Shown here: positions 12,346 through 61,074 of the stretch, one piece after another | How the letters are laid out: every line of letters begins with the position of its first letter | Numbering within the stretch: position 1 is the first letter of the stretch | Notes under the pieces: generated by a model | The model's input: only the letters and a program-made list of their open reading frames with translations | Told to the model about the DNA's origin: nothing | The model's database searches: none | Source of the DNA: Bacteroidaceae bacterium | GTDB taxonomy: Bacteria > Bacteroidota > Bacteroidia > Bacteroidales > Bacteroidaceae | Length of the DNA: 64,000 nt | Assembly: GCA_045603885.1 (NCBI GenBank) | Contig: JAZUMZ010000085.1 | Span: forward strand, 132 to 64,131 | Direction: 5' to 3' | Position numbers and translations under genes: made by a program

Positions 12346-12398
12346 GATGATAATAGAACAACGTATCAAGGCTGTTTACAATACGAAAGGACACTTAG

Positions 12399-14497: not shown

Positions 14498-14534
14498 AAT
14501 TATTACAAAAATTGCCTGTATAAAATAAAATGCT

Positions 14535-14542
14535 TAAATTTG
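14535..14542 (+). promoter_or_regulatory. Bacteroidota -7 promoter box (TAAATTTG) for hpt
   Basis: Exact match to TAnnTTTG, 22 nt upstream of the hpt ATG. Confidence 0.55.
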
Positions 14543-14563
14543 CAGACAAAAGCGGATTAAATA

Positions 14564-33330: not shown

Positions 33331-33423
33331 TTCACAAAAAGTGATCAGAAAGAACTCTTAGACAAATTCTGGCAAAGTCAATTTACGAATTTACGAAAAT
33401 ATATCAAAAAAATATGTGAAAAT

Positions 33424-33455
33424 TTTGTTGGTTTCAAAAAAAAATTATAATTTTG
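33424..33455 (+). promoter_or_regulatory. Bacteroidota promoter of island-A operon (-33 TTTG at 33424-33427, -7 TAATTTTG at 33448-33455)
   Basis: Both boxes are present with a 20-nt spacer. The same arrangement is conserved in the second copy at 48582-48612. Confidence 0.6.
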
Positions 33456-33461
33456 CATTTG

Positions 33462-41360: not shown

Positions 41361-42695
41361 ATGAACGCAAAACAAGTATTGGATGACCTGAAGCGTCGTT
41401 TCCCTAATGAACCTGAATATCATCAGGCAGTTGAAGAAGTGCTTGGCACTATTGAAGAGGAATACAACAAGCATCCTGAGTTTGACAAAGCAAACCTGAT
41501 TGAGCGTCTTTGCATTCCAGATCGCGTATATCAGTTCCGTGTCAGCTGGATGGACGACAAAGGCAACATCCAAACTAACATGGGTTACCGTGTACAGCAC
41601 AACAATGCCATTGGCCCCTACAAGGGAGGTATTCGTTTCCACAGCTCTGTAAACCTTGGTATATTGAAGTTCCTTGCCTTTGAGCAGACATTCAAGAACT
41701 CACTGACCACACTTCCTATGGGTGGCGGCAAGGGAGGTTCAGACTTCTCTCCCCGCGGCAAGAGCAATGCAGAGGTTATGCGTTTCTGCCAGGCATTCAT
41801 GCTTGAGCTGACCCGCCATATCGGTCCTGACGTGGACGTTCCAGCCGGCGACATCGGTGTAGGTGGTCGTGAGGTAGGCTATATGTTTGGTATGTACAAG
41901 AAGCTGACCCGTGAATTCAGCGGCGTTCTCACAGGAAAAGGCCTTGAGTTCGGTGGCTCACTCATCCGTCCTGAGGCAACCGGTTATGGTAATGTTTACT
42001 TCCTTCAGGAGATGCTGAAGACCAAGGGTGACAGCGTGAAGGGCAAAACCGTTCTGATTTCAGGTAGCGGCAATGTGGCACAGTACACCGCAGAGAAGGT
42101 TCTCCAGCTTGGCGGTAAGGTTGTGACCATGTCAGACTCTGACGGTTACATCTACGATCCCGACGGTATTGACCGCGAGAAGCTTGACTTCATCATGGAT
42201 CTTAAGAACGTTCAGCGTGGCCGTATCCGCGAATATGCAGAGCAATATGGTTGCAAATATGTTCCCGGCGAGCGTCCTTGGGGCGAGAAGGCCGACATCG
42301 CACTTCCTTCAGCCACTCAGAACGAGATTAACGAGGAGCAGGCAAAGACTCTCATAGCCAACGGTGTGATGGCCGTAAGCGAGGGTGCCAACATGCCTTC
42401 TACTCCTGGCGCAATCCGCGTGTTCCAAGAGGCAAAGATTCTGTATGCACCTGGCAAGGCTGCAAATGCCGGCGGTGTGTCAGTGTCAGGTCTTGAGATG
42501 AGCCAGAACTCAGAGCGTCTGTCATGGAGCTCAGAGGAGGTTGACAACAAGCTTCACTACATCATGGAGAATATCCACGAAAACTGCGTGAAGTATGGCA
42601 AAGAGGCTGACGGTTATGTAAACTACGTAAAGGGTGCCAACGTTGCCGGTTTCATCAAGGTTGCCAAAGCAATGATGGCTCAGGGAATTGTATAA
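41361..42695 (+). CDS. gdhA: NAD(P)-specific glutamate dehydrogenase
   Basis: The ATG at 41361 gives MNAKQVLDDLKRRFPNEPEYHQAVEEV, the typical GDH N-terminus. Catalytic block LPMGGGKGGSDFSPRGKS and dinucleotide fold ISGSGNVAQY. The ORF-track GTG at 41268 overlaps the promoter box. Confidence 0.95.
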   Translation: MNAKQVLDDLKRRFPNEPEYHQAVEEVLGTIEEEYNKHPEFDKANLIERLCIPDRVYQFRVSWMDDKGNIQTNMGYRVQHNNAIGPYKGGIRFHSSVNLGILKFLAFEQTFKNSLTTLPMGGGKGGSDFSPRGKSNAEVMRFCQAFMLELTRHIGPDVDVPAGDIGVGGREVGYMFGMYKKLTREFSGVLTGKGLEFGGSLIRPEATGYGNVYFLQEMLKTKGDSVKGKTVLISGSGNVAQYTAEKVLQLGGKVVTMSDSDGYIYDPDGIDREKLDFIMDLKNVQRGRIREYAEQYGCKYVPGERPWGEKADIALPSATQNEINEEQAKTLIANGVMAVSEGANMPSTPGAIRVFQEAKILYAPGKAANAGGVSVSGLEMSQNSERLSWSSEEVDNKLHYIMENIHENCVKYGKEADGYVNYVKGANVAGFIKVAKAMMAQGIV

Positions 42696-48008: not shown

Positions 48009-48084
48009 GCAAATTGGATTATTTCTGCGAAGTTATACGGCTTCAGATCCGTGATGTTTCCTCTAAAACCATCCCATTACCTTT

Positions 48085-48168
48085 TCATCTACATACGCTT
48101 ACCGCCTCCTTTGCTTTTTGTATTTCTAAAGCAACAAGTGTATCTCTCTCTTCGTTGGTCAAACTCAT
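48085..48168 (-). pseudogene. Truncated HEPN-domain gene (only the first 27 codons remain)
   Basis: Its ATG overlaps the MNT stop (ATGA). MSLTNEERDTLVALEIQKAKEAVSVCR* resembles the N-terminus of HEPN partners of MNT nucleotidyltransferases, which are normally ~120-135 aa. Confidence 0.5.
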
Positions 48169-48479
48169 AGTAATACTATTTTATCGTGTTCAACATTTTT
48201 GTAATAAGGCAAAAATGACCATTGACGCCATTGGTGTTTAGTATAAATATGTGGATTTATTTCCTCGCCGATTTCCCACCCCATTTGTCTGAGAGGATAT
48301 GTAAGGTCGTAGTCTTCTGCTGTGAGTTTATTTTTGTCAAGCAAAATCAGCAAATCCCAGTCGGAATTCTTACGAGCGTCACCACGAGCCCTTGAACCAT
48401 AAAGTAACAAAGTGCTATCAGGTGGCAATGTAGTTCTTCCTACAGATTTAATTTTTTCAATAATTTCTTGTTGTCGCAT
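48165..48479 (-). CDS. Nucleotidyltransferase (MNT-type, HEPN/MNT toxin-antitoxin family)
   Basis: LLLYGSRARGDARKNSDWDLLILL matches the GSxxRGxxxxxSDxD minimal nucleotidyltransferase motif. 104 aa. Confidence 0.8.
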   Translation of the reverse strand: MRQQEIIEKIKSVGRTTLPPDSTLLLYGSRARGDARKNSDWDLLILLDKNKLTAEDYDLTYPLRQMGWEIGEEINPHIYTKHQWRQWSFLPYYKNVEHDKIVLL

Positions 48480-48581
48480 CTTCTTATCCTGTTAGTATAT
48501 TATGTAGCAATCGTAAATCATCACTATTATTTCTGCGAAGTTACGAATTTACGGAAACATATCAAAAAAATATGTGAAAAT

Positions 48582-48612
48582 TTTGTTGGTTACAAAAAAA
48601 CTTGTAAATTTG
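48582..48612 (+). promoter_or_regulatory. Bacteroidota promoter of island-B operon (-33 TTTG 48582-48585, -7 TAAATTTG 48605-48612)
   Basis: Same architecture and position as the 33424-33455 promoter within the duplicated element. Confidence 0.6.
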
Positions 48613-48618
48613 CAATCG

Positions 48619-48985
48619 ACTCAGTTAGCCCAATCAGGGTGAGTGGGTTATCTTATTGGTAAAGGACGTTTACGAACGTTATCTTCAACCCTTGAATCTC
48701 GCAAATTCTAAGTAGCAGAAGAAACGCAACCGGAACGTCTGCGTTGGGTGTATTATACCCAGTCCGCAATACACATTATAACATTGTATCTTACATTTAA
48801 TGTGTCAACGGGACTCTCTATGTATAATATCCGCCGGCGTGGGCTGACTCGAGTTGCTTATCCTGCTACAAGGCAATGCGAGAGCCCAAGGGTTGGATAA
48901 GCGAGAAGTAGAGACTCCCACGTCTTTTTCATTCCTTATGTCTAATCGCTGAACCGGGGTGCGCAGCAGTAAAACTCTTATAGCT
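48619..48985 (+). ncRNA. Candidate structured ~365-nt 5' leader RNA, copy B
   Basis: See copy A. The hairpin arms are conserved. Most differences from copy A fall in predicted loops, for example the loop of the (A)CACAUU/AAUGUG(U) stem, which is 17 nt in A and 21 nt of unrelated sequence in B. Confidence 0.45.
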
Positions 48986-49267
48986 ATGAAAAAGATTATA
49001 GTTTTATTGTTGTCTGTATTTATCGTAATAATTCCCATCTTCGGACAGAATCCGTTGGAAAATGCCGTGGTTTCCTATCAGACGGAAGGGCTACAGTTGA
49101 TGATAAAAATTGGTGGCATGCGACTTTCACTTGTAAGAAATGTGGACATCAATCCATATGGAAGTTTAAAGAAAATTAATCTAAATTTAAAGGTTCGTCA
49201 TCAGACTTTTCTTTTAGGGGTTAAATCCCTTAAGAATTGTCTGATGAAGAACTGTTTTGACTATTAA
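48986..49267 (+). CDS. Small secreted protein, unknown function
   Basis: The ATG at 48986 gives MKKIIVLLLSVFIVIIPIFG|Q. 93 aa. First gene after leader copy B. Confidence 0.55.
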   Translation: MKKIIVLLLSVFIVIIPIFGQNPLENAVVSYQTEGLQLMIKIGGMRLSLVRNVDINPYGSLKKINLNLKVRHQTFLLGVKSLKNCLMKNCFDY

Positions 49268-49279
49268 AAGACATGACCA

Positions 49280-49777
49280 ATGAAAAGATTAATATTGTTA
49301 TACTTGTTCAGCATTACCTATATAATTGGAATCCAAGCTCAGGACTCTCGATATGTAGGCACCTGGAAGTGGCATTATGACTCCCCCTATGAGGATGGAG
49401 AAGAAGGAATGCCTCCTCGGGATGAATATATAAAAATAAATATAGAAGATGGAAGTGTATGGATTAGTATTAAAATGGAAGGGAAAGATGGTAATGGGCA
49501 TCCTTTTGTAAGTCGAGAAGAAGCAGAAGATATAAGAGTGAATAGTGATGGTTCCATCTCTTTTAGACGATATATTTGTAAAAAAGAATATGACAACGAT
49601 AAGCAACTTTATCTGACTGTTTGGGACTCTTATACTGTCCGTTATGCTGGAGGGAGACTTATTTCAAATGAAGAAGTCAATGAAGAATCATATTCAGCAA
49701 ATGGAATTTTAGTCAAATCAGAATACCACAAAATGCCTCGGAAGAAAACATATTATAACGAAAAAGATAATTGGTAA
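49280..49777 (+). CDS. Small secreted protein, acidic-Trp C-terminus family, member 1 (lipocalin-like GxW start)
   Basis: Signal peptide ...GIQAQ|D. The mature N-terminus has YVGTWKW, the central block is EYIKINIEDGSVWISIKME, and the C-terminus is YYNEKDNW. Confidence 0.7.
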   Translation: MKRLILLYLFSITYIIGIQAQDSRYVGTWKWHYDSPYEDGEEGMPPRDEYIKINIEDGSVWISIKMEGKDGNGHPFVSREEAEDIRVNSDGSISFRRYICKKEYDNDKQLYLTVWDSYTVRYAGGRLISNEEVNEESYSANGILVKSEYHKMPRKKTYYNEKDNW

Positions 49778-49796
49778 TCAATTATAGAAAATAATA

Positions 49797-50282
49797 ATGA
49801 AGAAACTACTATTATTGCTAATGTTTGCTTTTGAATCTTGTAATCTCTTAGCACAGGATTGTAATTTGTGTGGTACTTGGATAGGAGTGTTTAGAGTATT
49901 TCTAGACGGTGACAACACAACTAAGAGGCTTTATATAGACATTAAAAAAACATATAGGGACAAATATGTTGTTAGGGTTAAAGAAGTATATACATATAAT
50001 GACCAAAGCTCTAAAACATATTATTGGCATGAATGCATGGACGTAAACGCAAATAAAAACGTCATTACGTGGAAAAGTTTCAGTCATCAAATTGATGATA
50101 ATGAGGATGGTGGCTACGAGAAATACTATTATGTATGCACGGCAAGAGTAGATAATGGAATATTGTACTTTAAACAAATGGTTGAAGGTTTTTATTATGG
50201 AAGAAATGGAGAAATAATAGGCGAATATAACCAACCGGCATATCCAACGAAAGAATTATATAAAGACGAAGATAACTGGTAA
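49797..50282 (+). CDS. Small secreted protein, acidic-Trp C-terminus family, member 2
   Basis: Signal peptide ...LLAQ|D. Blocks are CGTWIGVF, then LYIDIKK...KYVVRVKE, then the C-terminus LYKDEDNW. Confidence 0.7.
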   Translation: MKKLLLLLMFAFESCNLLAQDCNLCGTWIGVFRVFLDGDNTTKRLYIDIKKTYRDKYVVRVKEVYTYNDQSSKTYYWHECMDVNANKNVITWKSFSHQIDDNEDGGYEKYYYVCTARVDNGILYFKQMVEGFYYGRNGEIIGEYNQPAYPTKELYKDEDNW

Positions 50283-50300
50283 CAAATATTTTTTGAGTTT

Positions 50301-51110
50301 ATGAAAAGAACCTTAATAACGTCTATTTTTATTTGTTTGTCGTTCATAAATGTAATGACATTATGGTCTTTTAACTCCCATTCATTTACAGGAAAGAGAA
50401 TCAATGTTTTCAGCGAAGTTAATGACGATTGGATTCTTATTGGCGAAGTTTCTTTGTCTAACTATAATTCTGGCTACGAACCAATCACTGCAAAATTGTA
50501 TGTCAGAGAGATTGCTAAGGAACTTATCTATCGGGTAGAATATCAAGGAGCGTTTTATGCTACCAGATGGCATGATGATTCCAAAACATACCATGTAACA
50601 ATAAACGGCAAGACATATAGATGCGATGTGCCTGTCAATTCTACAGAAAATGAAACGGAGAGTGGAAACTCCGCGAAATTCGTTGGTAAGTGGAAGTTAG
50701 GACATCTGGGATGGTATATGGATATATCTTTTAACAATGGCAGATATAGTTTTAATTTAAATCCCGACTTAATAGGAGAGATAGTAGAATTTCAAGAGAC
50801 ATCAAACGGCATCGTATTTACTTATGTAGAAAAGTTTGACAAGCGCCCCGAGTTGAACAGAAAAGGTTGGCGGTATTATTATGATGAACGAGACAACAAA
50901 GCAGACCCTGGCTATCCGACCAGCGGAAGATATGAATACGACAGAGAGGTAGTGTATTATACAGCTTCTATTGCCTTATCAGACAAAGCACCAGTCCGCA
51001 AAATGATAAAGATGCATACTTACTATTACTTGGGAACAGCATTAACCTATGCTGATACAGATACGGATTTTAATATGCCTGGTTTTACTACAGAACTAAC
51101 AAAATATTGA
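50301..51110 (+). CDS. Secreted two-domain protein, unknown function (second half has an FVGKWKL lipocalin-like start; no acidic-Trp tail)
   Basis: Signal peptide present. 269 aa. Ends in ...TELTKY. Confidence 0.6.
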   Translation: MKRTLITSIFICLSFINVMTLWSFNSHSFTGKRINVFSEVNDDWILIGEVSLSNYNSGYEPITAKLYVREIAKELIYRVEYQGAFYATRWHDDSKTYHVTINGKTYRCDVPVNSTENETESGNSAKFVGKWKLGHLGWYMDISFNNGRYSFNLNPDLIGEIVEFQETSNGIVFTYVEKFDKRPELNRKGWRYYYDERDNKADPGYPTSGRYEYDREVVYYTASIALSDKAPVRKMIKMHTYYYLGTALTYADTDTDFNMPGFTTELTKY

Positions 51111-51113
51111 ACT

Positions 51114-51650
51114 ATGAAGAAAATGATTATATTAACCCTTTGTCTACTTTGCGGTTTGTCAGTAGCAACTGCACAAAGTCAAGATCCGTGGGTAGGAACA
51201 TGGACTTCTGAAAGCTACAAGGCATTAGACAGTGAATCAGAAGGACAAGAATACACTAATTATCGGTACGTTATTAGAATCTCAAAAAATGGAGATAATT
51301 ATTTCGTGAGAGCCAAAACTATCAAAGTTGCAGACCCTGAATCAGCAATCTATAATGATGCTTATGGTATTAAAAATTCACAAGCCAAGATTGACGGTAA
51401 TAGAATGCTGGTTGAATCTCGCAGGGAAAAGATTCCATTTTATGTAAATGGACGAGTCGATTCATATTCCAACACAACATCATATTTCGAATTAACGATT
51501 AACAACGGAACATTACATTGTTCTTTTTACAAATATGTAGTTGAGAGTTATGATAAGAATATGAGATATGAATACACTAACACATTTGGCTTACATGAAC
51601 AATATCCCGGCCCATGTGTTGAACGCGATTTATTCAACGATGATTGGTAA
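51114..51650 (+). CDS. Small secreted protein, acidic-Trp C-terminus family, member 3
   Basis: Signal peptide ...VATAQ|S. Blocks are WVGTWTSE, then YVIRISKNGDNYFVRAKT, then the C-terminus LFNDDW. Confidence 0.7.
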   Translation: MKKMIILTLCLLCGLSVATAQSQDPWVGTWTSESYKALDSESEGQEYTNYRYVIRISKNGDNYFVRAKTIKVADPESAIYNDAYGIKNSQAKIDGNRMLVESRREKIPFYVNGRVDSYSNTTSYFELTINNGTLHCSFYKYVVESYDKNMRYEYTNTFGLHEQYPGPCVERDLFNDDW

Positions 51651-51693
51651 ACTTTTTCAGTACATAACAAGGAAAATAAAATAGGATTCAATT

Positions 51694-52230
51694 ATGAGAA
51701 AATATCTATTAACAATTCTGCTTTCATTGCTATGTTTGATTAATGCAATGGCACAAGAACCCGCAATTTGTGGAGATTGGATAGGATTGTATAAAAGCGA
51801 AGCCATTTCAGATGATGTGGATAGTGATGGGAGTAAGTATCTAGTCCAAAAAGATTATAGGCGTTACATTAGAATTAAACTAATAGGTGACAATTACACT
51901 GTTAGAATGAAGACTAGGATTGCGGATGAGAGTTCTCCTTTCACATATTCTCCGGAATGCCAAATTATCGAGGCAAACGACAGAATTATCAAATGGAAAA
52001 TGAATTTGGGACCTTCATACGATTGGAACCCATCAGACAGGCATAAAGGAATACCCATTGGCCATGCTGATTATTATGAATATTGTACTGTTGTGCTTTC
52101 TAATGGAACATTAAAATACTCTGAATATATGTTGACTATCTATTATGATAGACAAGGCCGAGAAATTGACAAACAAAAATGGTTTGAAAAAGATGGCCAG
52201 ACTTTATATAAAGAAGACTCTGATTGGTAA
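51694..52230 (+). CDS. Small secreted protein, acidic-Trp C-terminus family, member 4
   Basis: Signal peptide ...NAMAQ|E. Blocks are CGDWIGLY, then RYIRIKLIGDNYTVRMKTRIADESSPF, then the C-terminus LYKEDSDW. Confidence 0.75.
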   Translation: MRKYLLTILLSLLCLINAMAQEPAICGDWIGLYKSEAISDDVDSDGSKYLVQKDYRRYIRIKLIGDNYTVRMKTRIADESSPFTYSPECQIIEANDRIIKWKMNLGPSYDWNPSDRHKGIPIGHADYYEYCTVVLSNGTLKYSEYMLTIYYDRQGREIDKQKWFEKDGQTLYKEDSDW

Positions 52231-52250: not shown

Positions 52251-52862
52251 ATGAAACAACTAATTATAATTTCTGTATTATTATTGTCATCACTTTCATC
52301 ATACGCACAATACGATGATGAAATATATACCGTAAATATCACGGGAGCTCCGAGCATTACACTTGACTATATGCGCAATCCTGGAGATATGGATACGCAT
52401 TCTTTCAATCAAGATAACAATCTGGGCACCTATTATCCTGACGACGATGGCGTAATTCGCATAGAATTGTCAAAAGGATACTATCAGTATTTAGTCCATT
52501 GGAATTCACACGGTCCACAAAACGGGAGTTTCTATATAAAAGATAGAAATGTATATTTTGAAATTCGTATGCTTCCTCCCTATTGCAATATAGATACGAA
52601 GAAAACTATTGAGAAAGCATACAGATGTTTGTCTAATAAGAAAAAGAAAGAAGCACGTGAGTTATTCTATATTGCGGCAGAGGCAGGAAATGCCGATGCG
52701 ATGTTTGACTATGCACGAATATGCTGGAATGGTATAGGTGGCGGGAAAAACAAAAACCATGCTTACCATTATATAAATGAAGCATTAAAACATGGGCACC
52801 CATTAGCGGCTACCTATATAGAACATTTTAAAGATAAATACGTTTGGAAATGGTACTTATAA
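52251..52862 (+). CDS. Secreted protein with N-terminal beta-rich domain and C-terminal Sel1-like repeats
   Basis: The ATG at 52251 gives MKQLIIISVLLLSSLSSYAQ|Y; the ORF-track start at 52224 is a TTG. C-terminal SLR block AAEAGNADAMFDYARICWNGIGGGKNKNHAYHYINEALKHGHPLAA. Paralog of 58643-59257. Confidence 0.7.
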   Translation: MKQLIIISVLLLSSLSSYAQYDDEIYTVNITGAPSITLDYMRNPGDMDTHSFNQDNNLGTYYPDDDGVIRIELSKGYYQYLVHWNSHGPQNGSFYIKDRNVYFEIRMLPPYCNIDTKKTIEKAYRCLSNKKKKEARELFYIAAEAGNADAMFDYARICWNGIGGGKNKNHAYHYINEALKHGHPLAATYIEHFKDKYVWKWYL

Positions 52863-52966
52863 AGGCCTGTTTTATGATAACAGCATTAACCGCCATTTCT
52901 GATAGATTATCTATGGGGAAGCCGAAAACCATATAGAGTAGGCAATAAACTAAATAAGTGTTACTT

Positions 52967-53161
52967 ATGGAGAACTTTAAATTATCTAATTTGCGCGAAC
53001 TCTCCACAGAGGAGCAGTTAAACTTGAATGGTGGCTTCGGCTCGAATGCTTCCTGTTCATGCTCTGGATGCAGTTGCTCATGCAGTGAAAAGAGTCCTAA
53101 AGCAACTGTAGATGAGGTCACAGATGGTGCCAAAGAGGCTGTAAAGGATGCAAAGCGTTAA
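52967..53161 (+). CDS. RiPP precursor peptide A (23-aa double-glycine leader + 41-aa core with 5 Cys)
   Basis: The sequence is MENFKLSNLRELSTEEQLNLNGG|FGSNASCSCSGCSCSCSEKSPKATVDEVTDGAKEAVKDAKR. The leader is nearly identical to that of the next ORF. The gene sits directly upstream of the C39-ABC exporter and rSAM genes. The ATG is at 52967; the ORF-track start at 52958 is a GTG. Confidence 0.75.
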   Translation: MENFKLSNLRELSTEEQLNLNGGFGSNASCSCSGCSCSCSEKSPKATVDEVTDGAKEAVKDAKR

Positions 53162-53180
53162 TTCTTAAAAACAGTAACTC

Positions 53181-53411
53181 ATGGATACTTTTAGATTGAC
53201 CAATCTACGCGAGCTCTCAACAGAGGAGCAGCTGCGTATTAATGGAGGCATGGATTCCACTGGTTGTAAAGCAGACTGTGGTGCTTGTACTTGTCCCTGT
53301 AAATGCAATAGCAAGAATCCTTCGAAGTCGGTAGGAGAAAGCAATGCAGATTCTGGCGACAATTCAGCCCTCGCCCAACGTAAAGTTACCGCTGCAATGC
53401 AGTCAATGTAA
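53181..53411 (+). CDS. RiPP precursor peptide B (23-aa double-glycine leader + 53-aa core with 6 Cys)
   Basis: The sequence is MDTFRLTNLRELSTEEQLRINGG|MDSTGCKADCGACTCPCKCNSKNPSKSVGESNADSGDNSALAQRKVTAAMQSM. Confidence 0.75.
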   Translation: MDTFRLTNLRELSTEEQLRINGGMDSTGCKADCGACTCPCKCNSKNPSKSVGESNADSGDNSALAQRKVTAAMQSM

Positions 53412-53414
53412 AGA

Positions 53415-55583
53415 ATGCCTCGATTCCGTATTGTTTACCAGCATGAGCAAGAAGACTGTGGAGCAGCTTGCCTTGCAATGATTTTACGCTTTTATGGCTT
53501 CCAAGTAACATTGGAGGCTATAAAGGCTTTTTGTGGTAACATGAAAAACGGAATAACGATGCTGGGATTAAACCGTTCTGCAAAACGAATCGGCTTTGCA
53601 ACGCAGGCAGTTCGGTTGAATGAAATGGAATTATTCAACTTAGAAGAAAGTCTATGCCCATTCATTGCATACTGGCGTCAAAATCATTTTGTAGTGGTTT
53701 ACAAAATTTCTGCCCAGCATGTTTATGTTGCAGACCCCGCAATTGGTAGAATCCGATACAACAAAAGAGAGTTTCTGGATGGCTTTGCATTATCAGAAAC
53801 CTCCGATGGCTTTGTTTTGCTATTAAAGCCAGAAAACATAAAAAAGGAGACAATACAAGAAGAACAACGAATTGGTATTAACCTACAAGATTACATTAAA
53901 CCTCGGTGGAAGGAGTTAACGTGGACTGTAGTCTCTTTATTAATTCTTTCTGCTATTGGCCTTATCTTTCCTTTTCTTACTCAGGCAGTAGTAGATAAAG
54001 GTATAGCAGAAAAAAGCCCAAGTATCCTGTTGGTTATTTTATGTGCCACGCTTTCATTAACCATAGGACGCGCTCTTTTTAGCTTTCTGCAATCGCGAAT
54101 GACCTTAGTCGCAGGGACACTAATTGATATAGAATTAGCCAATAATCTTTTGGTGAGACTGTCGGCTTTGCCTATGAAATTCTTTGCAGCCCGTAAGGTT
54201 GGTGATATGATACAGCGTGTTTCGGACATTTCTCGAATAGGCGACTATTTCTCCTCACGTATAGCAGAAAGCATTCTTTCAACATTGATGTTCTGCATAT
54301 ATGCCGGAATCTTATTATATTTGTATCCGTTGCTATTTGTTGTATTTATGATAGGAGCAACCTTATATATATCGTACATCCTCCTATTCCTACGCCGTAG
54401 GAAGATTCTTGACTACGAATTCTTTGGTGCTGCTTCAAAATCCCAAGAAGAATTGATACAATACTTACGGGGCATGACTGAATTGAAATTAGCATGTGCA
54501 GAAGATGAGCGCCTGGGTATATGGAAGAAATATAGGTATGAACTTTTTAGCGTAAGCCGTCGAAGCCTTATGCTATCGCAAAAACAAGAATTAGGGAGTG
54601 TCTTTATTTTCCAAGTTGTAGATGCAATCACAATATACCTGATGGCAATAGCTGTGATTGACGGAAATACCACTTTGGGGTCGATGATGGCCGTTCAATA
54701 TATTATTGGGAGCATGGAGAATCCTTTGCACATTGTTACAAGATTTATCCGAGATACGCAAAGTATGCAAATTGCTCTTACGCGTATCAATTATATAGCA
54801 TCGTCAGAACCAGAGAAGAGCGGAAATACTCGGTTCTCCTCACATGACATCCCCCCTTCGATTAAAATAGACAACATAACATTTTCTTATGACATTGATG
54901 ATAATAAACCAGCATTACTAAATGTAAATGTAATTATTCCATCTGGTAAAACGACTGCCTTAGTAGGGATGAGTGGAAGCGGAAAAACAACACTTCTAAA
55001 ACTATTGCTTGGTTTCTATTCTCCCGATAATGGCTCTATTTATGTCAATAATGAAAGACTGTCTGATTTTGATTTGTCAGATTGGCGGAAGTGTATTGGA
55101 GCCGTTATGCAAGATGGATACATTTTTTCGGATACTATTACAAAGAATGTTGCTTTGGGTGATACTAATCCTTCAATTGAAAGGATTAAAGAAGCACTTC
55201 GAATATCGTGCGCAGACTTTGTCTTCGCATTACCCGTCGGATTAAACACCATCATTGGAGCTGAAGGAATGTCACTCAGTATGGGGCAACGACAACGTAT
55301 TTTACTTGCAAGAGCTATTTATAAACGTCCATCTCTTTTTCTTTTAGATGAAGCTACAAATGCTTTGGATGCCATTAACGAACGGCATATATATGAAAAC
55401 TTAAATTCTGAATTGAAGGGGAAAACTGTTGTAATAGCAGCGCATCGGTTGAGTACCATTAGCAATGCTGACCAAATACTTGTATTTGATGAGGGACGTA
55501 TAGTTGAGAGCGGAATACATACGGAACTAATAGAAAAGAATGGCAAATATGCTGAGTTGGTGCGTAATCAGCGTTTCAATTAA
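53415..55583 (+). CDS. Peptidase C39 domain-containing ABC transporter (bacteriocin/RiPP leader-cleaving exporter)
   Basis: N-terminal C39 motif QHEQEDCGAACLAMIL. Six-TM ABC membrane domain. Walker A GMSGSGKTT, signature LSMGQRQR, Walker B LFLLDEAT. Confidence 0.9.
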   Translation: MPRFRIVYQHEQEDCGAACLAMILRFYGFQVTLEAIKAFCGNMKNGITMLGLNRSAKRIGFATQAVRLNEMELFNLEESLCPFIAYWRQNHFVVVYKISAQHVYVADPAIGRIRYNKREFLDGFALSETSDGFVLLLKPENIKKETIQEEQRIGINLQDYIKPRWKELTWTVVSLLILSAIGLIFPFLTQAVVDKGIAEKSPSILLVILCATLSLTIGRALFSFLQSRMTLVAGTLIDIELANNLLVRLSALPMKFFAARKVGDMIQRVSDISRIGDYFSSRIAESILSTLMFCIYAGILLYLYPLLFVVFMIGATLYISYILLFLRRRKILDYEFFGAASKSQEELIQYLRGMTELKLACAEDERLGIWKKYRYELFSVSRRSLMLSQKQELGSVFIFQVVDAITIYLMAIAVIDGNTTLGSMMAVQYIIGSMENPLHIVTRFIRDTQSMQIALTRINYIASSEPEKSGNTRFSSHDIPPSIKIDNITFSYDIDDNKPALLNVNVIIPSGKTTALVGMSGSGKTTLLKLLLGFYSPDNGSIYVNNERLSDFDLSDWRKCIGAVMQDGYIFSDTITKNVALGDTNPSIERIKEALRISCADFVFALPVGLNTIIGAEGMSLSMGQRQRILLARAIYKRPSLFLLDEATNALDAINERHIYENLNSELKGKTVVIAAHRLSTISNADQILVFDEGRIVESGIHTELIEKNGKYAELVRNQRFN

Positions 55584-55604
55584 GGACATTAAAAAGATAA
55601 TCAT

Positions 55605-57218
55605 ATGACTACGAAACATGAAGCCCTGAATTATTTGAAGGAAAACTATCCTTTGGTAAAGATTGTCGATTTTGACACTCTTAGTAAGTTATTTTATGAT
55701 GCGAGAGCACATATGCTATTCGTCGTCGGTGAAGAAGACCTACCTATCATTGCGGATTACCTACGTACTCACGACAAGGCTTTCCTAAACAAAGAATATC
55801 CACATTTCAGTGGCATTGATGGTATTATAGAACGTATAGATGACTTGCAAAACAAAGGCGTACTACTTCCTGGCCCAGTTGAACAACTAATCAGCACTGA
55901 ACCAGACGAAGTATATAAACGAATTGAGTATAATATTGAAAACATATTGATGCGTAAATTCGTACTGGAAACCACACAGCAATGTAATTTCAGATGTCGC
56001 TATTGCCATAACACGCTCGAATCTGTATATCGCCATCATACTAAAAGCCAGATGATGTTTCCTGTTGCAAAAGCTGCGATAGACTTTTACAAGGATATGT
56101 ATTTAAAATTCTACAGACGTCTACCTGATGAGAAAAAGGAATTGTTGCTTAAACATTTCAAGCCTTTTGTTGGGTTTTATGGGGGAGAACCGTCGCTTAA
56201 CTGGAATCTGGTAAAAGAAGCATCAGATTATTTCTTGAATTGTGGTTGGGAGAATGATGGAATTAACCAGAAAGATTTAGAAATATCTATAAATACAAAT
56301 CTATATATCCTAACAGATGACATGATGTCCTTCATATTGTCATATCAACCTCTCTTGTTTGTTTCTCTTGACGGGCCAAAAGAAGATAATGATCGAAATA
56401 GAATAACCGCTGACGGCAAGGGAACATTTGACAAGGTTTATTCTAACTTGATGCGAATAAAAGATGCAGATGAAAAATACTTTAAGGAAAAGATGTTGAT
56501 ATTATGTGTGGAAGCTGAGGGTAATGATAGTAAAGCAGTACATAACTTATTAGATAATCTTGGATGTCCTATAAGCTATTTAAAGGAACAACCATTTGGA
56601 TGTCTTGAACGTGAGCCAGAGAAACAGGTCCAATATTATGATGAGAACGAAGAACGTATGATTAATTCGGTCATCGATAATTATAAACATCGCGCCTCTG
56701 AGAATGATCCCAACGCAATAGAAGAATTTTCTTCATTATATTTTCTGGAAGGAGTTGAAAGTGACACGCCCTACTATCGTCGTCCTATATCAATTAGTCT
56801 CACATGTCCGCTTTGTGTTGACAATATTATGATTGGAACTAAGGGGGAAATGCATCTATGCCATAAGACGGATGGCTCCTTGCCACTCGGAAATGTTTGT
56901 GAAGGTGGGTATGACATGAAAAAAATGTTCGAAGCCTATCAAAGCTATGGAGAGGCAACAAATTGTATAGAATGTCGTAGTTGTTGGGCGATGAATGTCT
57001 GTAGCTACTGCGCAGCCTTGCGTCTTGATGGTGGAAAATGGGTAAATCCCAAACATGAAGAATGTGATTTACAAAGAAGACGTGTCGAATATCTTCTTAA
57101 ACTCTTTGTCGCGATGTATAAGTTAGACCCAACCATCTTGCCAAAACTAATGGAAAGGAAAAGGGATTTGAATATCTATAAGTCTATTGTTGATTTTAAT
57201 TCTTTTGTCAATTTATAA
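55605..57218 (+). CDS. Radical SAM/SPASM-domain peptide maturase
   Basis: CNFRCRYC (CX3CX2C) at aa 127-134. C-terminal auxiliary-cluster Cys motifs CPLC...C...C...CIECRSCWAMNVCSYC. A ~115-aa N-terminal extension precedes the rSAM core. Confidence 0.85.
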   Translation: MTTKHEALNYLKENYPLVKIVDFDTLSKLFYDARAHMLFVVGEEDLPIIADYLRTHDKAFLNKEYPHFSGIDGIIERIDDLQNKGVLLPGPVEQLISTEPDEVYKRIEYNIENILMRKFVLETTQQCNFRCRYCHNTLESVYRHHTKSQMMFPVAKAAIDFYKDMYLKFYRRLPDEKKELLLKHFKPFVGFYGGEPSLNWNLVKEASDYFLNCGWENDGINQKDLEISINTNLYILTDDMMSFILSYQPLLFVSLDGPKEDNDRNRITADGKGTFDKVYSNLMRIKDADEKYFKEKMLILCVEAEGNDSKAVHNLLDNLGCPISYLKEQPFGCLEREPEKQVQYYDENEERMINSVIDNYKHRASENDPNAIEEFSSLYFLEGVESDTPYYRRPISISLTCPLCVDNIMIGTKGEMHLCHKTDGSLPLGNVCEGGYDMKKMFEAYQSYGEATNCIECRSCWAMNVCSYCAALRLDGGKWVNPKHEECDLQRRRVEYLLKLFVAMYKLDPTILPKLMERKRDLNIYKSIVDFNSFVNL

Positions 57219-57463
57219 TGTCACATTATATGCAGAAAAAGAGTTCATATAAAGCCATTATCAAATATGCTGGATATGCTGTTATTATGATTATCCTGTT
57301 TTCTGCATTCATCTATAGAAATACTCTGCGTTCTCAATTGTCAGAATTGATGCAAAAATGCATTTTATGTAACTTTGAAAATCGACATCATTGTAAATAC
57401 TGCATGATGGGCCATCGGCAATGTTTTTTATGTGACAAGGTTCCTGTTGACTCAGATAAGTAG
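57218..57463 (+). CDS. Small single-pass membrane protein with three CxxC motifs, translationally coupled to the rSAM gene
   Basis: TAATG overlap with the rSAM stop. TM helix YAGYAVIMIILFSAFIY, then CILC...CKYC...CFLC. Confidence 0.55.
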   Translation: MSHYMQKKSSYKAIIKYAGYAVIMIILFSAFIYRNTLRSQLSELMQKCILCNFENRHHCKYCMMGHRQCFLCDKVPVDSDK

Positions 57464-57522: not shown

Positions 57523-58053
57523 ATGAGAAAAGTATTATTAGTAAGTTTATTGTCATTAATGAGTTTTATAACGACAATGGCACAACAATCCGCGATATGT
57601 GGGGATTGGATAGGTATTGCTCATGAAGCTGCATTTAAAGAGCATCCAGAAACTGGAAATATGATGAGAGTTGATGAAAAGTTGTATATTCGTATCAAAC
57701 AGATTGATGGGAAGTTTCAAGTGAGGATGAAAACACGAATTGCTGACGAAAGTAGGCCTTTTAATTATCTGCCAGAATGTAAAGTGATTTTTGTGAATGA
57801 CAATGTTGTAAAGTGGTCTCAAGACTGGGGGGGCAATAATGAAGGTAATTTAGGAAAAGAACAAGGTATTGTTGTGGGCAGGGACTCACAAATTGCATAT
57901 TATACAGCTGTATTAACTGATGGCGTGTTACGTCTTTCAGAAAAATATATTATCACCTATTATGACAGGCAAGGGCGAGTTATTACATCTAAAGATTTCC
58001 CTTCTAGTTATTCTAAGGGTGTCACTTTGTACAAAGAAGAGTCTGATTGGTAA
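57523..58053 (+). CDS. Small secreted protein, acidic-Trp C-terminus family, member 5
   Basis: Signal peptide ...TTMAQ|Q. Blocks are CGDWIGIA, then LYIRIKQIDGKFQVRMKTRIADESRPF, then the C-terminus LYKEESDW. Confidence 0.75.
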   Translation: MRKVLLVSLLSLMSFITTMAQQSAICGDWIGIAHEAAFKEHPETGNMMRVDEKLYIRIKQIDGKFQVRMKTRIADESRPFNYLPECKVIFVNDNVVKWSQDWGGNNEGNLGKEQGIVVGRDSQIAYYTAVLTDGVLRLSEKYIITYYDRQGRVITSKDFPSSYSKGVTLYKEESDW

Positions 58054-58068
58054 ACATTTAACTATTCA

Positions 58069-58595
58069 ATGATGAGAAAAGTATTATTAGCAAGTATGTT
58101 GTCCCTGCTTTGTTTGACAACAGCAATGGCTCAAAGACTCGCAATTTGCGGGGACTGGGTAGGAGTTTTTGAGAGTTTTAATATTTTCGACTCCAATGGA
58201 GACAGACATAGAGTTGATGCTAATTATAAACGGTATATTCGGATAAAGTTTATAGATGGCCAATACACCGTTAGGATGAAAACAAGAATAGCAGATAACA
58301 CAGAACCTTTCAATTATTGGTCAGAATGTCAAATAATAGAAGCTGACAACAGACAGATTAAATTGAAAATGGATTTAGGCCCTGAATAGGATTGGTCTTC
58401 AGACTCAAGACATAAAGGAATACAAATTGGTCATGCCGATTATAATATGTTTAACACAGAACGCTATTAAATGGAACATTAAAGTATTCTGAGTATATGT
58501 TGACCACATATTTTGACAGATTTGGTAGAGAAATAGACAGAGAGTACACATATGACAAAGAGCATTTGTTATACAAAGATGAAGATGATTGGTAA
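58069..58595 (+). pseudogene. Acidic-Trp C-terminus family, member 6, inactivated (in-frame TAG at 58387 plus a frameshift near 58450)
   Basis: The first 106 codons align with member 4 (CGDWVGVF...RYIRIKFIDGQYTVRMKTRIADNTEPF). After the TAG the homology continues (DWSSDSRHKGIQIGHADY). It then shifts frame (NGTLKYSEYMLTTYFDRFGREID...LLYKDEDDW*). Confidence 0.7.
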
Positions 58596-58642: not shown

Positions 58643-59257
58643 ATGAAAACATTAATATCAATTATTGTGCTATTGTTATCAACAATCACAGCTCAAGGAC
58701 AATACGCTAATAACACATATACAGTAAATATCCCTGGAGTTTCGAGTATTATATTATTTTATCCAAGTGACTATGATGCTTCCAGATCATCTTCAGAAGC
58801 AGGTCCCTTTGACGGTGCAAATATTATGGGTACATATTATTCCGATATAGATGGCGTAATACGCATAGAACTCACAAAAGGGTATTATGAATATATAACA
58901 GAAAAAAACGGAATGAATGGAAGTTTTTTAATATCCGACCGCAACGTATATTTTAATATTTTAGAACTTCCCCCACTTTTTAGTATTGACACAGGGAAAG
59001 TACTTTCTCAAGCATATCAATATCTGTCTAACAAGCAGAAAAAGAGAGCACGAGAATTATTTCAAATAGCAGCTGATGCCGGTAATGTGAAAGCTATGTT
59101 TACCTATGCACGAATGTGTTACAACGGAATGGGAGGTGGAAAAAACAAGAATAATGCTTATCACTGTATAGTAGAAGCACAGAAACACGGTGATTCTATA
59201 GCTTCTTATTTCCTTGAAAACTTTAAGGACAAGAGGATTTGGAAATGGCATCTATAA
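58643..59257 (+). CDS. Secreted protein with N-terminal beta-rich domain and C-terminal Sel1-like repeats (paralog of 52251-52862)
   Basis: Signal peptide ...ITAQG|Q. Shared blocks YTVNIPG, GTYYSDIDGVIRIELTKGYYEY, AADAGNVKAMFTYARMCYNGMGGGKNKNNAYH, and the shared ending FKDK.(I/V)WKW(H/Y)L. Confidence 0.7.
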   Translation: MKTLISIIVLLLSTITAQGQYANNTYTVNIPGVSSIILFYPSDYDASRSSSEAGPFDGANIMGTYYSDIDGVIRIELTKGYYEYITEKNGMNGSFLISDRNVYFNILELPPLFSIDTGKVLSQAYQYLSNKQKKRARELFQIAADAGNVKAMFTYARMCYNGMGGGKNKNNAYHCIVEAQKHGDSIASYFLENFKDKRIWKWHL

Positions 59258-60801: not shown

Positions 60802-61074
60802 TTACTTCCTTAGTAATTCTGCATCCTGAAGCTGTCTGCCAAGGGGGTCATCGGCAGCAAGCAGGACGATGTCGTATTCCAAATTAAGTGCAAAGAGTAC
60901 GCGCACATAAATCCCCATGGATACCGTCGGGTCGCCATGCTCCACCTTTGAGACCGTCAGACATTTCACAGTTGCCCTGTCCGCTATGTCCTGCATAGAA
61001 AGATGCCGGCGCTTTCAAGCCAGCATTATCTGCTCACCCATTATCTTCACTTTCTGGCTCAATGCTCTTGGCAT
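60802..61074 (-). pseudogene. hipB: HipB-like XRE-family HTH antitoxin gene with an internal nonsense codon
   Basis: MPRALSQKVKIMGEQIMLA*KRRHLSMQDIADRATV... The TGA at 61015-61017 sits where XRE proteins have LARKRR (a CGA to TGA type change). Confidence 0.65.

What the first reader, a model, noticed from the sequence alone, without database searches (positions are those of the whole stretch)
49280..52230. Array of paralogous small Sec-exported proteins with a lipocalin-like GxW start and a conserved acidic-Trp C-terminus
Six genes encode 160-180-aa proteins built the same way: 49280, 49797, 51114, 51694, 57523 and pseudogene 58069. Each has a signal peptide cleaved before Gln and a mature N-terminus [VC]G[TD]W. 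Each has a central Y[IV][RK]I..(D)(G/N)..V[RS].K block and a ...NG.L.. block. Each ends in a C-terminus [LY][YF][KN][DE][ED][DS][ND]W-COOH (YYNEKDNW, LYKDEDNW, LFNDDW, LYKEDSDW, LYKEESDW, LYKDEDDW). Sequence identity between subgroups is low, but the termini are fixed. That suggests the free acidic-Trp carboxy-terminus is itself functional, as a docking, sorting or protease-recognition tag. I cannot place the family in any named domain. Diversified secreted paralogs wrapped around a peptide-toxin-like cluster are reminiscent of immunity or carrier-protein arrays.
Basis: partly seen in the sequence, partly recalled or inferred. Interest (0 to 1): 0.75.

Follow-up and report, generated by a model that had tools for sequence, protein, structure and literature searches.

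The report
Unnamed exported beta-barrel family, acidic-Trp tail
The six genes are real paralogues of an unnamed family of small exported all-beta proteins, found almost only in rumen- and gut-type Bacteroidales metagenomes, whose last residue is almost always tryptophan after an acidic stretch; the tail is probably a docking tag, but its function is untested.

Summary
Five intact genes (49280, 49797, 51114, 51694, 57523) and one pseudogene (58069-58595) are paralogues. Each has a signal peptide ending A|Q, an N-terminal GxW and a C-terminal [YF][KN]..[DN]W.

No Pfam, NCBIfam or PHROG model matches the family, and no source names it. It has about 215 clusters among 1.84 billion representative proteins. 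It is almost absent from 185,579 species-representative genomes. Of 226 members that reach the C-terminus, 217 (96%) end in Trp.

AlphaFold gives a confident all-beta meander (pLDDT 91-94) with a low-confidence tail. Sequence profiles hit liver fatty-acid-binding proteins (E=1e-6), but Foldseek finds no significant PDB match (TM at most 0.34). The calycin reading is therefore only partly supported.

The radical-SAM peptide cluster accompanies the arrays in only 2 of 12 distinct contexts. The steadier neighbours are exported Sel1-like repeat proteins (8 of 12), a small secreted Cys-rich protein (9 of 12) and the Rfam DUF805b leader RNA (7 of 12).

My best reading is that these are periplasmic binding modules, and that the acidic-Trp tail is a linear motif for a shared partner, most likely the Sel1-like proteins. 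It is a new family of moderate interest, and the mechanism is inferred, not shown.

The parts
49280..49777 (+). Family paralogue A (165 aa; RYVGTWKWHYDSPYEDG ... YYNEKDNW subtype)
   Evidence: ORF. Family HMM 8.6e-47. Orthologous subtype recurs in L005, L008, L011, L015, L021 and L026.
49797..50282 (+). Family paralogue B (161 aa; CNLCGTW ... LYKDEDNW subtype)
   Evidence: 1.1e-47. AF2 model of the mature form has pLDDT 93.6, pTM 0.86 and 10 beta strands; the last residue has pLDDT 47.
50301..51110 (+). 269-aa exported protein (C-type). Not a detectable family member, but a recurrent neighbour.
   Evidence: No family HMM hit at E<=1e-3. hhalign to the family gives only 77.6%, partly through the signal peptide. 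Homologues of 267-277 aa sit next to arrays in L005, L015 and L017.
51114..51650 (+). Family paralogue D (178 aa; QDPWVGTWTSESY ... DLFNDDW subtype)
   Evidence: 5.6e-52. The subtype alignment A5 has DPWVGTWTSE invariant.
51694..52230 (+). Family paralogue E (178 aa; AICGDWIG ... LYKEDSDW subtype)
   Evidence: 6.2e-76. AF2 model has pLDDT 91.2, pTM 0.78 and is all beta; the last block (171-178) has pLDDT 72.
52251..52862 (+). Exported Sel1-like repeat protein S1 (203 aa from the ATG; N-terminal beta domain plus a basic Sel1 region; ends KYVWKWYL)
   Evidence: Pfam Sel1 2.4e-4. PDB Sel1 proteins at 3.9e-5. 57% identical to S2. Homologues in L005, L011, L013 and L031. Signal peptide ends A|Q.
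52912..52944 (+). DUF805b RNA motif (Rfam RF02914), leader of the precursor-peptide genes
   Evidence: 44.1 bits against a gathering score of 35.6, E=5.9e-10. The same motif lies upstream of precursors or of the small Cys-rich gene in L005, L008, L011, L013, L015, L024 and L031.
52958..53411 (+). Two Cys-rich precursor peptides with a ...LSTEEQL.(L/I)NGG leader (52958-53161 and 53181-53411)
   Evidence: translations. Orthologues in L005 and L031.
53415..55583 (+). Peptidase-C39 ABC exporter (PCAT)
   Evidence: NCBIfam NHLM_micro_ABC1 1.2e-127 and bacteriocin_ABC 1e-112, both below the equivalog cut-offs.
55605..57218 (+). Radical SAM/SPASM peptide maturase
   Evidence: NCBIfam CcpM 2.6e-45 and RumMC 9e-40, all below cut-off.
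57218..57463 (+). 81-aa protein with one hydrophobic helix and three CxxC pairs. It occupies the position held by the small Cys-rich protein in L005, but is not homologous to it by HMM.
   Evidence: E=3.8, not significant; found only in close island variants L031, L033 and L034.
57523..58053 (+). Family paralogue G (176 aa; ... LYKEESDW)
   Evidence: 1.4e-62. 45% identical to E.
58069..58595 (+). Pseudogene of an E-type paralogue (premature TAG at 58387-58389 plus a frameshift; remnant ends LYKDEDDW)
   Evidence: repeat family D2, copy 58566-58595.
58643..59257 (+). Exported Sel1-like repeat protein S2 (204 aa; ends KRIWKWHL)
   Evidence: 57% identical to S1, 4e-80.

Best explanation
These genes encode an unnamed family of Sec-exported proteins, about 140-160 residues when mature. 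They fold as an all-beta up-and-down meander that is remotely like fatty-acid-binding proteins (the calycin group). The family is confined to Bacteroidales of rumen and gut type.

The genes sit in low-GC accessory islands as tandem arrays of 1-10 copies. The copies belong to anciently separated subtypes, and each subtype has orthologues in other islands.

Shown here: the bodies are diverse, while the N-terminal GxW and an unstructured acidic tail ending in an essentially invariant Trp-COOH are fixed.

Inferred: the barrel bodies bind different ligands or targets in the periplasm or at the envelope. The shared tail is a short linear docking motif that ties all paralogues to one common partner. 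The most likely partner is the exported Sel1-like (TPR-class) repeat proteins encoded in the same operons, which would grip an acidic C-terminal peptide much as TPR domains grip EEVD-COOH.

Most of these operons are headed by a gene for a small exported Cys-rich peptide, either a Sec-dependent mini-protein or GG-leader rSAM precursors, under a DUF805b leader. The most likely job of the set is therefore to bind, neutralise or hand over such envelope-active peptides. This last step is speculative.
For: Family and export:
- No named family matches.
- There are 141 relatives among 5.8e9 proteins and 215 clusters among 1.84e9 representatives.
- A and Q at the cleavage site are present in 134 and 145 of 148 sequences. 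G.W is in 222 of 226 N-complete members.
- The Q-rule literature is PMC5837995.

Fold:
- AF2 pLDDT is 91.2 and 93.6, all beta, with 8-10 strands.
- FABP profile hits are at 1.2e-6 and 1.6e-4, and hhalign gives 83.6%.

Tail:
- 217 of 226 members end in W, and 201 of those 217 have D or N at -1. The mean is 2.5 acidic residues in positions -5 to -1.
- The tail carries 2.8 bits per column against a 1.56-bit mean.
- Tail pLDDT is low (47 and 72), as expected for a free linear motif.
- Synonymous codon differences rule out a DNA-level element.

Partner:
- Sel1-repeat proteins lie in or next to the arrays in 8 of 12 distinct contexts.
- All the Sel1-like proteins examined carry signal peptides ending (A/G)|Q or a comparable hydrophobic leader, so they reach the same compartment.
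- The Sel1 part of S1 and S2 is Lys/His-rich (sequences).

Operon logic:
- Genes are 3-43 nt apart.
- The small Cys-rich gene is present in 9 of 12 contexts.
- DUF805b lies directly upstream of it or of the rSAM precursors.
Against: - No binding, localisation or expression data exist. The docking partner is inferred from gene neighbourhood only.
- The tail is invariant across islands that carry three different Sel1 architectures (about 200, 250 and 490-614 aa). It is also intact in L001, where no Sel1 gene lies within 10 kb. That pattern fits a conserved housekeeping partner at least as well.
- Foldseek does not confirm a calycin barrel (best PDB E=0.02, TM 0.25-0.34).
- The subtypes are conserved between islands rather than rapidly diversifying. 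This is unlike classical arms-race immunity arrays.
- The window itself lacks the small Cys-rich gene, and no DUF805b copy precedes either array.
Confidence: 0.4

Rival explanations
1. The acidic-Trp tail is a sorting, secretion or quality-control signal read by conserved host envelope machinery, not by island-encoded proteins. Candidates are an outer-membrane export or vesicle-loading route, or a PDZ-type protease.
For: The tail is nearly invariant across about 200 clusters whose bodies share under 25% identity, and across islands with different neighbours, including a singleton with no Sel1 gene nearby. Conservation that extreme suggests a slowly evolving partner. The mature proteins are acidic, with pI 5.0-6.2.
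Against: No such signal is known in Bacteroidota. The tail is far shorter than a T9SS C-terminal domain. It lacks the alternating hydrophobic pattern of an outer-membrane-protein beta-signal, and it does not fit the aromatic-x-aromatic ends read by DegS-type PDZ domains (own knowledge). No candidate machine is encoded nearby.
Confidence: 0.25
2. The terminal Trp is structural. It packs against the barrel, possibly with the invariant N-terminal GxW Trp, or it plugs the ligand pocket of its own or a neighbouring subunit. An indole plus a carboxylate resembles a fatty-acid head group in FABPs. The motif would then serve folding or oligomerisation rather than docking to another protein.
For: The two invariant residues of the whole family are the GxW Trp and the C-terminal Trp. 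In lipocalins the GxW Trp closes the barrel base (own knowledge).
Against: AF2 does not place the tail with confidence in either model (pLDDT 47 and 72), while the rest of each chain is above 90. The acidic residues before the Trp are also conserved, which a purely hydrophobic plug would not need.
Confidence: 0.2
3. One reading: the arrays are dedicated immunity or carrier proteins for the rSAM-modified peptides encoded between them.
For: In the window, its close variants (L031, L033, L034) and L005, the arrays flank or follow the precursor/PCAT/rSAM genes. The precursors share the DUF805b leader with the gene that heads arrays elsewhere.
Against: Ten of 12 distinct contexts have arrays with no rSAM or PCAT genes within the sequence available. 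L008, L011, L013 and L015 each have 10 kb on both sides. Arrays of 6-10 conserved subtypes are excessive for two peptides.
Confidence: 0.1
4. The similarity is a chance or annotation artefact: spurious ORFs in AT-rich DNA.
For: None beyond the low GC of the island.
Against: Pairwise E-values reach 1e-50. There are more than 200 homologue clusters of consistent length. AF2 models are confident. Synonymous variation occurs under a fixed peptide.
Confidence: 0.01

Closest known systems
Fatty-acid-binding proteins / calycin superfamily (liver basic FABP, e.g. PDB 1p6p, 2ft9)
   Same: An N-terminal G-T/D-W on the first strand, followed by a run of antiparallel hairpins. Family profiles align about 60-90 residues to FABPs at E=1.2e-6 and 1.6e-4, and hhalign gives 83.6%. 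The model of paralogue B has 10 strands, as FABPs do.
   Different: There is no helix-turn-helix lid. The proteins are exported rather than cytosolic. No Pfam lipocalin or FABP model is hit. Foldseek TM to FABP4, avidins and RBP is only 0.2-0.34 and not significant. FABPs have no conserved C-terminal tail.
TPR-domain recognition of acidic C-terminal peptides (Hsp70/Hsp90 EEVD-COOH with a TPR 'carboxylate clamp'; own knowledge, cf. PMC5660230)
   Same: An invariant acidic C-terminal peptide with a free carboxylate sits on otherwise different proteins. TPR-class (Sel1-like) repeat proteins are encoded beside them and exported to the same compartment.
   Different: The setting is the bacterial envelope and the terminal residue is Trp. 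No binding has been shown. Sel1-like repeats are not known to use a carboxylate clamp.
Small periplasmic beta-barrel inhibitor or immunity proteins (MliC/PliC lysozyme inhibitors, serralysin inhibitors of the calycin group, T6SS periplasmic immunity proteins including Sel1-like ones; own knowledge)
   Same: Small exported beta-rich proteins, sometimes in multi-copy arrays within accessory islands. Sel1-like proteins also serve as periplasmic immunity proteins in other systems.
   Different: There is no sequence or structural match to any of them. No toxin or effector gene is adjacent in any surveyed locus. The subtypes are conserved between islands rather than being diverse orphans.
Bacteriocin operons with the structural peptide gene followed by immunity genes
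   Same: A small exported Cys-rich peptide gene, or GG-leader precursors, comes first and is followed by co-oriented, tightly spaced genes for exported proteins.
   Different: There are up to ten downstream paralogues, no demonstrated antimicrobial activity, and a shared DUF805b RNA leader that is not a feature of known bacteriocin loci.

Membership tests
Kernel lipocalins (Pfam PF00061 type) | GxW motif on the first strand (structurally conserved region 1) | tested here: met
   G and W are present in 147 and 148 of 148 aligned members, and G.W occurs in 222 of 226 N-complete members.
Kernel lipocalins (Pfam PF00061 type) | Match to the family profile | tested here: not met
   No lipocalin model is hit at E<=1 for the window proteins. 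Across 148 members at E<=0.1, one member gives a single chance-level Lipocalin_8 hit (E=0.058).
Kernel lipocalins (Pfam PF00061 type) | Eight-stranded barrel followed by a C-terminal alpha-helix; structural superposition | tested here: not met
   No helix is predicted outside the signal peptide. Retinol-binding protein and crustacyanin hits have E of 0.4 or more and TM 0.19-0.27.
Fatty-acid-binding proteins (iLBP branch of calycins) | Significant sequence-profile similarity | tested here: met
   1p6p E=1.2e-6 and 2ft9 E=5.5e-5 with profile A3. With the broader profile A6 the values are 1.6e-4 and 3.3e-4. hhalign gives 83.6%.
Fatty-acid-binding proteins (iLBP branch of calycins) | Ten antiparallel strands with a helix-turn-helix lid between strands A and B | tested here: not met
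   The model of B has ten strands, but neither model has a helix.
Fatty-acid-binding proteins (iLBP branch of calycins) | Same fold by structure comparison (TM of about 0.5 or more) | tested here: not met
   FABP4 7fz5: E=0.13, TMq 0.26, rmsd 14 A. No PDB match reaches E<=1e-3 for either model. No AlphaFold DB of cellular proteins was available, so remote calycin-like relatives remain untested.
T9SS cargo (C-terminal domain signal) | A folded Ig-like C-terminal domain of about 70-100 residues | tested here: not met
   Only about 5-8 residues follow the last predicted strand, and no CTD model is hit.
Outer-membrane beta-barrel proteins (C-terminal beta-signal) | A terminal aromatic residue preceded by alternating hydrophobic residues | tested here: not met
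   A terminal Trp is present, but positions -1 to -4 are D/N, D/S, D/N/E and E/D. The proteins are small, soluble-looking and acidic.
RiPP (rSAM peptide) immunity or carrier proteins | Obligatory co-occurrence with the precursor, maturase and exporter genes | tested here: not met
   The rSAM/PCAT cluster is present in 2 of 12 distinct contexts (the window type and the L005 type). It is absent from L001, L008, L011, L013 and L015 despite 10-kb flanks.
TPR/Sel1-repeat protein plus C-terminal peptide docking pair | An acidic C-terminal peptide with a free carboxylate, conserved independently of the protein body | tested here: met
TPR/Sel1-repeat protein plus C-terminal peptide docking pair | A repeat-protein partner encoded with it and located in the same compartment | tested here: met
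   Sel1 proteins occur in 8 of 12 contexts. Pfam Sel1 scores reach 1.2e-57. They carry signal peptides. The exception is L001.
TPR/Sel1-repeat protein plus C-terminal peptide docking pair | Direct, tail-dependent binding | not testable with these tools

The most novel reading that the evidence does not exclude
The DUF805b-led operons are a previously unrecognised envelope system of rumen and gut Bacteroidales. A small exported Cys-rich peptide (Sec-dependent or rSAM-modified) would be handled by a fixed set of calycin-like binders. All binders would plug into a Sel1-repeat scaffold, or into a dedicated envelope machine, through a new bacterial C-terminal signal, [DN]W-COOH after an acidic stretch. 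That would give the orphan DUF805b RNA motif a biological context and define a new docking or sorting tag.
Probability: 0.2. Interest if true: 0.8.

Novelty: new variant of a known kind. Interest (0 to 1): 0.55.

Why it matters
The family has no name, no domain model and no solved relative. Even so, it shows one of the cleanest terminal motifs one can find: 96% of members end in Trp after an acidic run, while the bodies share only about 20% identity. If that tail is a docking or sorting tag, it would be a new addressing signal in the Bacteroidota envelope, a phylum for which few export signals are known.

The gene neighbourhood also links three orphan items: the family itself, a small secreted Cys-rich protein, and the Rfam DUF805b RNA. 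All three travel with Sel1-like repeat proteins and, in some islands, a radical-SAM peptide cluster. This gives a testable operon model in rumen Prevotella-like bacteria.

The family is almost absent from species-representative genomes. It is therefore also an example of accessory gene content seen mainly in unbinned metagenome contigs.

Tried and rejected
- Library scans. Pfam, NCBIfam and PHROGs scans of all island proteins gave nothing for the family. A Pfam scan of 148 members found no model hit by more than 2 members.
- Structure searches. Foldseek of two confident models against the PDB gave no hit at E<=1e-3. Against viral predicted structures there was one uncharacterised hit at 8e-4 with TM 0.38, which is uninformative.
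- Species-representative genomes. The E-type profile found none. The D-type profile found one partial MAG hit at a contig end. The organism could therefore not be named from that collection.
- Viral contigs. No hits, so a phage origin is rejected.
- Two 2,600-aa proteins in the representative search matched profile positions 112-152 14-15 times. They are MBG/YDG-repeat surface proteins. I judged these to be repeat-pattern matches rather than homology, and I dropped an initial thought of Rhs/YD repeats.
- A DNA-level explanation for the conserved 3' ends (a recombination or regulatory site) is rejected. Codons vary synonymously and the downstream spacers differ.
- The 102-aa ORF at 48959-49267 and the 81-aa protein at 57218-57463 were tested as equivalents of the array-heading Cys-rich protein. 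Neither is significant. The 102-aa ORF has no homologue in any fetched locus and may not be a gene.
- The 269-aa protein as a divergent family member remains inconclusive (hhalign 77.6%, partly from the signal peptide).
- The exact-sequence look-up of paralogue G found no contig record. No cluster member carries a name.
- The literature search found no description of this family or of DUF805b biology.


Full report
**What is in the sequence**

The window carries a block of low GC content at about 48.0-59.4 kb (0.35-0.38, against 0.46-0.49 in the flanks). It lies between an NhaC-type antiporter gene and a split HipA-like gene. All genes of interest in this block are on the + strand and 3-43 nt apart.

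The order is as follows:
- paralogue A (49280-49777)
- paralogue B (49797-50282)
- a 269-aa exported protein (50301-51110)
- paralogue D (51114-51650)
- paralogue E (51694-52230)
- a Sel1-like protein, S1 (52251-52862)
- two Cys-rich GG-leader precursors, a C39-peptidase ABC exporter and a radical SAM/SPASM maturase (52958-57218)
- an 81-aa CxxC protein
- paralogue G (57523-58053)
- a pseudogene (58069-58595)
- a second Sel1-like protein, S2 (58643-59257)

The pseudogene has a premature TAG at 58387-58389 and a later frameshift. Its remnant still reads ...LYKDEDDW.

Yes. Pairwise BLASTP gives E-G 45% identity (1e-50), B-E 30% (4e-21) and D-E 31% (4e-12). A is weakly related at 23% (1e-5). An HMM built from database homologues recovers all six at 9e-47 or better and nothing else in the window.

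The conservation is therefore on the peptide, not on a DNA element.

The 269-aa protein inside the stated span is not a detectable member.

**How big and how known is the family?**

No Pfam, NCBIfam or PHROG model matches any paralogue. Among 148 members, no Pfam model is hit by more than two.

A profile search of 5.8 billion proteins found 141 relatives, none with a name or a precomputed domain. A full HMMER pass over 1.84 billion cluster representatives found 215 at E<=1e-3 and 140 at E<=1e-10.

Two scans of one genome for each of 185,579 species found nothing for the E-type and one partial hit in a MAG for the D-type. Viral contigs gave nothing.

The contigs that carry the family come from metagenome assemblies. 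Their record names (STEW19, WILK20, XIEF21, TONG22) look like ruminant gut studies, but that reading is my inference from the names.

The window itself is chromosomal DNA of a diderm (TamB, GH2 beta-galactosidase, NAD synthase, glutamate dehydrogenase). The near-universal A|Q cleavage site is the Bacteroidetes Q-rule (PMC5837995, PMC10653852). 'Cleaved before Gln' is thus a phylum trait, not a feature of this family.

**The tail**

Of 226 members whose match reaches the C-terminal part of the profile, 217 (96%) end in Trp as the last residue. Of those, 138 end in DW and 63 in NW. Positions -5 to -1 hold 2.5 acidic residues on average, and 179 of 217 have no basic residue in -3 to -1.

The last eight alignment columns average 2.8 bits, against 1.56 bits for the whole alignment. 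In that alignment, which was built only from members that end in Trp, the GxW Trp and the terminal Trp are the only invariant residues.

That condition is clearly not met.

**Fold**

AlphaFold2 with family alignments gives confident models. For E, pLDDT is 91.2 and pTM 0.78. For mature B, pLDDT is 93.6 and pTM 0.86. Both are all-beta meanders of 8-10 strands with no helix. The tail is the least confident part: pLDDT is 72 for residues 171-178 of E and 47 for the last residue of B.

Family profiles searched against PDB sequences find liver basic fatty-acid-binding proteins first. Profile A3 gives E=1.2e-6 for 1p6p and 5.5e-5 for 2ft9. The broader profile A6 gives 1.6e-4 and 3.3e-4. The alignment starts at GTW. 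hhalign against the 1p6p fragment gives 83.6%.

Foldseek does not back this up. Neither model has a PDB hit at E<=1e-3. The best hits are a DUF3598 protein (E=0.02, TM 0.25) and weak matches to FABP4, avidins and retinol-binding protein (TM 0.2-0.34).

I therefore call the fold 'calycin/FABP-like, remote'. It is supported by sequence profiles but not confirmed by structure comparison. No library of predicted cellular structures was available.

**Genomic context elsewhere**

I fetched 36 loci and clustered their ORFs. They collapse to about 12 distinct contexts, with arrays of 1 to 10 paralogues.

The same subtypes recur from island to island: an A-type (...Y[YFH]NE[KR][DE]NW), a D-type (...[LM][FY]ND[DEN]W) and several E/B-types (...LYK..[DN]W). 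The arrays are therefore sets of old paralogues, not recent local duplications.

| Neighbour | Distinct contexts (of 12) | Notes |
|---|---|---|
| Exported Sel1-like repeat proteins, three architectures (about 200 aa as S1/S2; about 250 aa with five repeats, Pfam 1.2e-57; 490-614 aa) | 8 |. All have signal peptides. |
| 82-102-aa secreted protein with W..D.DC.kC...CGk.CG...C...C.H, usually heading the array | 9 |. Not found in the window by HMM. |
| 267-277-aa C-type protein | 3 | Window type, L005, and L015 with L017. |
| Exported PepT-like M20 peptidase | 3 |. |
| Precursor/PCAT/rSAM cluster | 2 | The window type (also L031, L033-L036) and L005. |

Close variants of the window's island lack A and B, or replace the right-hand end. 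This shows modular gain and loss.

**A shared leader**

Rfam's DUF805b motif (RF02914) lies at 52912-52944, just upstream of the first precursor gene (44.1 bits against a gathering score of 35.6).

The same motif is found directly upstream of the precursors in L005 and L031. It is also directly upstream of the small Cys-rich gene that heads the arrays in L005, L011, L013, L015 and L024, and upstream of a 92-aa gene in L008. The rSAM precursors and the Cys-rich mini-protein thus occupy equivalent, similarly led positions at the head of these operons.

**Mechanism**

Shown: the proteins are an exported, all-beta, remotely FABP-like family. It is arrayed and island-borne. It has an unstructured, acidic, Trp-terminated tail under strong purifying selection. 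It is encoded next to exported Sel1-like proteins.

Inferred: a fixed tail on varied bodies is the signature of a short linear motif read by a common partner. TPR-class repeats are the classic readers of acidic C-terminal peptides (EEVD-COOH), and the Sel1 part of S1 and S2 is Lys/His-rich (sequences). I therefore favour docking of all paralogues onto the Sel1-like proteins. The barrels would bind small envelope-active molecules, plausibly the Cys-rich peptides encoded at the operon head. I put this at about 0.4.

Arguments against this reading:
- The tail is equally conserved where no Sel1 gene is nearby (L001) and across three Sel1 architectures. This fits a housekeeping reader, that is a sorting, secretion or protease signal (0.25).
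- The two invariant Trp residues could instead pack together, or plug a pocket within one subunit or between subunits (0.2).

**Comparison with known systems**

The family works most like a calycin-type binding module joined to a TPR-style C-terminal docking system. It fails the membership tests for lipocalins and for FABPs: there is no profile hit, no helix and no significant structural superposition. It also fails the tests for T9SS cargo, for outer-membrane beta-signals and for obligatory RiPP accessory proteins.

It is best filed as a new family, a new variant of the exported calycin-like barrel theme. Its terminal motif and operon context have not been described in the libraries or papers I could search.

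**Verdict**

The family is real and unnamed, and its terminal motif is strikingly conserved. Its function is unproven. Interest is moderate (0.55), and would be higher if the tail proves to be a new envelope docking or sorting signal.

Noticed in passing
window 52912-52944 (+); also L005 1541-1573 and 5865-5897, L011 4600-4632, L013 8367-8399, L015 8570-8607, L008 14640-14672, L024 782-814, L031 963-995: The Rfam DUF805b cis-regulatory RNA motif (RF02914) scores above its gathering threshold. It always lies about 15-55 nt upstream of a small exported Cys-rich peptide gene, either a GG-leader rSAM precursor or the 82-102-aa Sec-dependent protein that heads the arrays. A DUF805-domain gene lies in L011 at 14181-14879. 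This gives the orphan motif a concrete gene context.
   Followed up: partly
L001 10709-10990, L005 5921-6169, L008 7026-7334, L011 4654-4920, L013 8421-8696, L015 8626-8883, L021 155-424, L030 9651-9938: A family of small secreted proteins with a conserved six-Cys pattern (DC.kC ... CGk.CG ... C ... C.H) sits next to the arrays in 9 of 12 contexts. The L008 member, the only one scanned here, has no Pfam hit, and a weak Ogr_Delta hit is on record for the L011 member. It is absent from the window by HMM.
   Followed up: partly
window 48018-48035 and 48526-48543: An exact 18-nt direct repeat, ATTATTTCTGCGAAGTTA (0 expected by chance), brackets the MntA-like nucleotidyltransferase gene (48165-48479, - strand) at the left edge of the low-GC island. 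It may be an insertion scar or an attachment site.
   Followed up: partly
window 50301-51110; P0085: The 269-aa exported protein recurs beside arrays in three other loci (L005, L015, L017). Database protein P0085 (213 aa, 89 member sequences) looks like a chimera: it has this protein's signal peptide and first ~45 residues joined to a D-type family body ending DLFNDDW.
   Followed up: partly
window 59475-60278 and 60200-60724 (- strand): A HipA-like toxin gene appears split into two overlapping ORFs at the right edge of the island. An HTH-like ORF lies at 60802-60996.
   Followed up: no
window 32000-42000: A second low-GC stretch (0.34-0.41) holds several ORFs with no Pfam hit, an OMP beta-barrel gene (34341-34880) and a three-repeat Sel1 protein (40460-40933, Pfam 1.4e-39). 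The Sel1 protein clusters with the array-associated Sel1 proteins of other loci.
   Followed up: no
L001 9006-9497 (-) versus 11655-12851 (-): In a rumen-type contig, a single family gene plus the Cys-rich gene sit between a saccharopine dehydrogenase gene and a duplicated 3' fragment of that same gene. This suggests insertion with target duplication.
   Followed up: no
L008 11436-12683, L011 12780-14162, L015 11139-12500; L005 14036-16073, L013 11212-11889: Exported PepT-like M20 peptidases (NCBIfam PepT at 1e-69 to 1e-75, just below cut-off) recur at the edges of the arrays, as do metallo-beta-lactamase-fold proteins, one of them fused to SIR2. None is present in the window.
   Followed up: partly
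L033, L034 (island variants of the window): Near-identical islands in other samples lack paralogues A and B. They also have different right-hand ends (SIR2 fragments in place of the pseudogene and S2). The array content therefore varies between strains.
   Followed up: partly
window 48959-49267: The 102-aa ORF (93 aa from the ATG) at the head of the first array has no homologue in any fetched locus and no domain hit. It may not be a real gene. About 400 nt of non-coding sequence with higher GC (48545-48958) lies upstream of it.
   Followed up: partly
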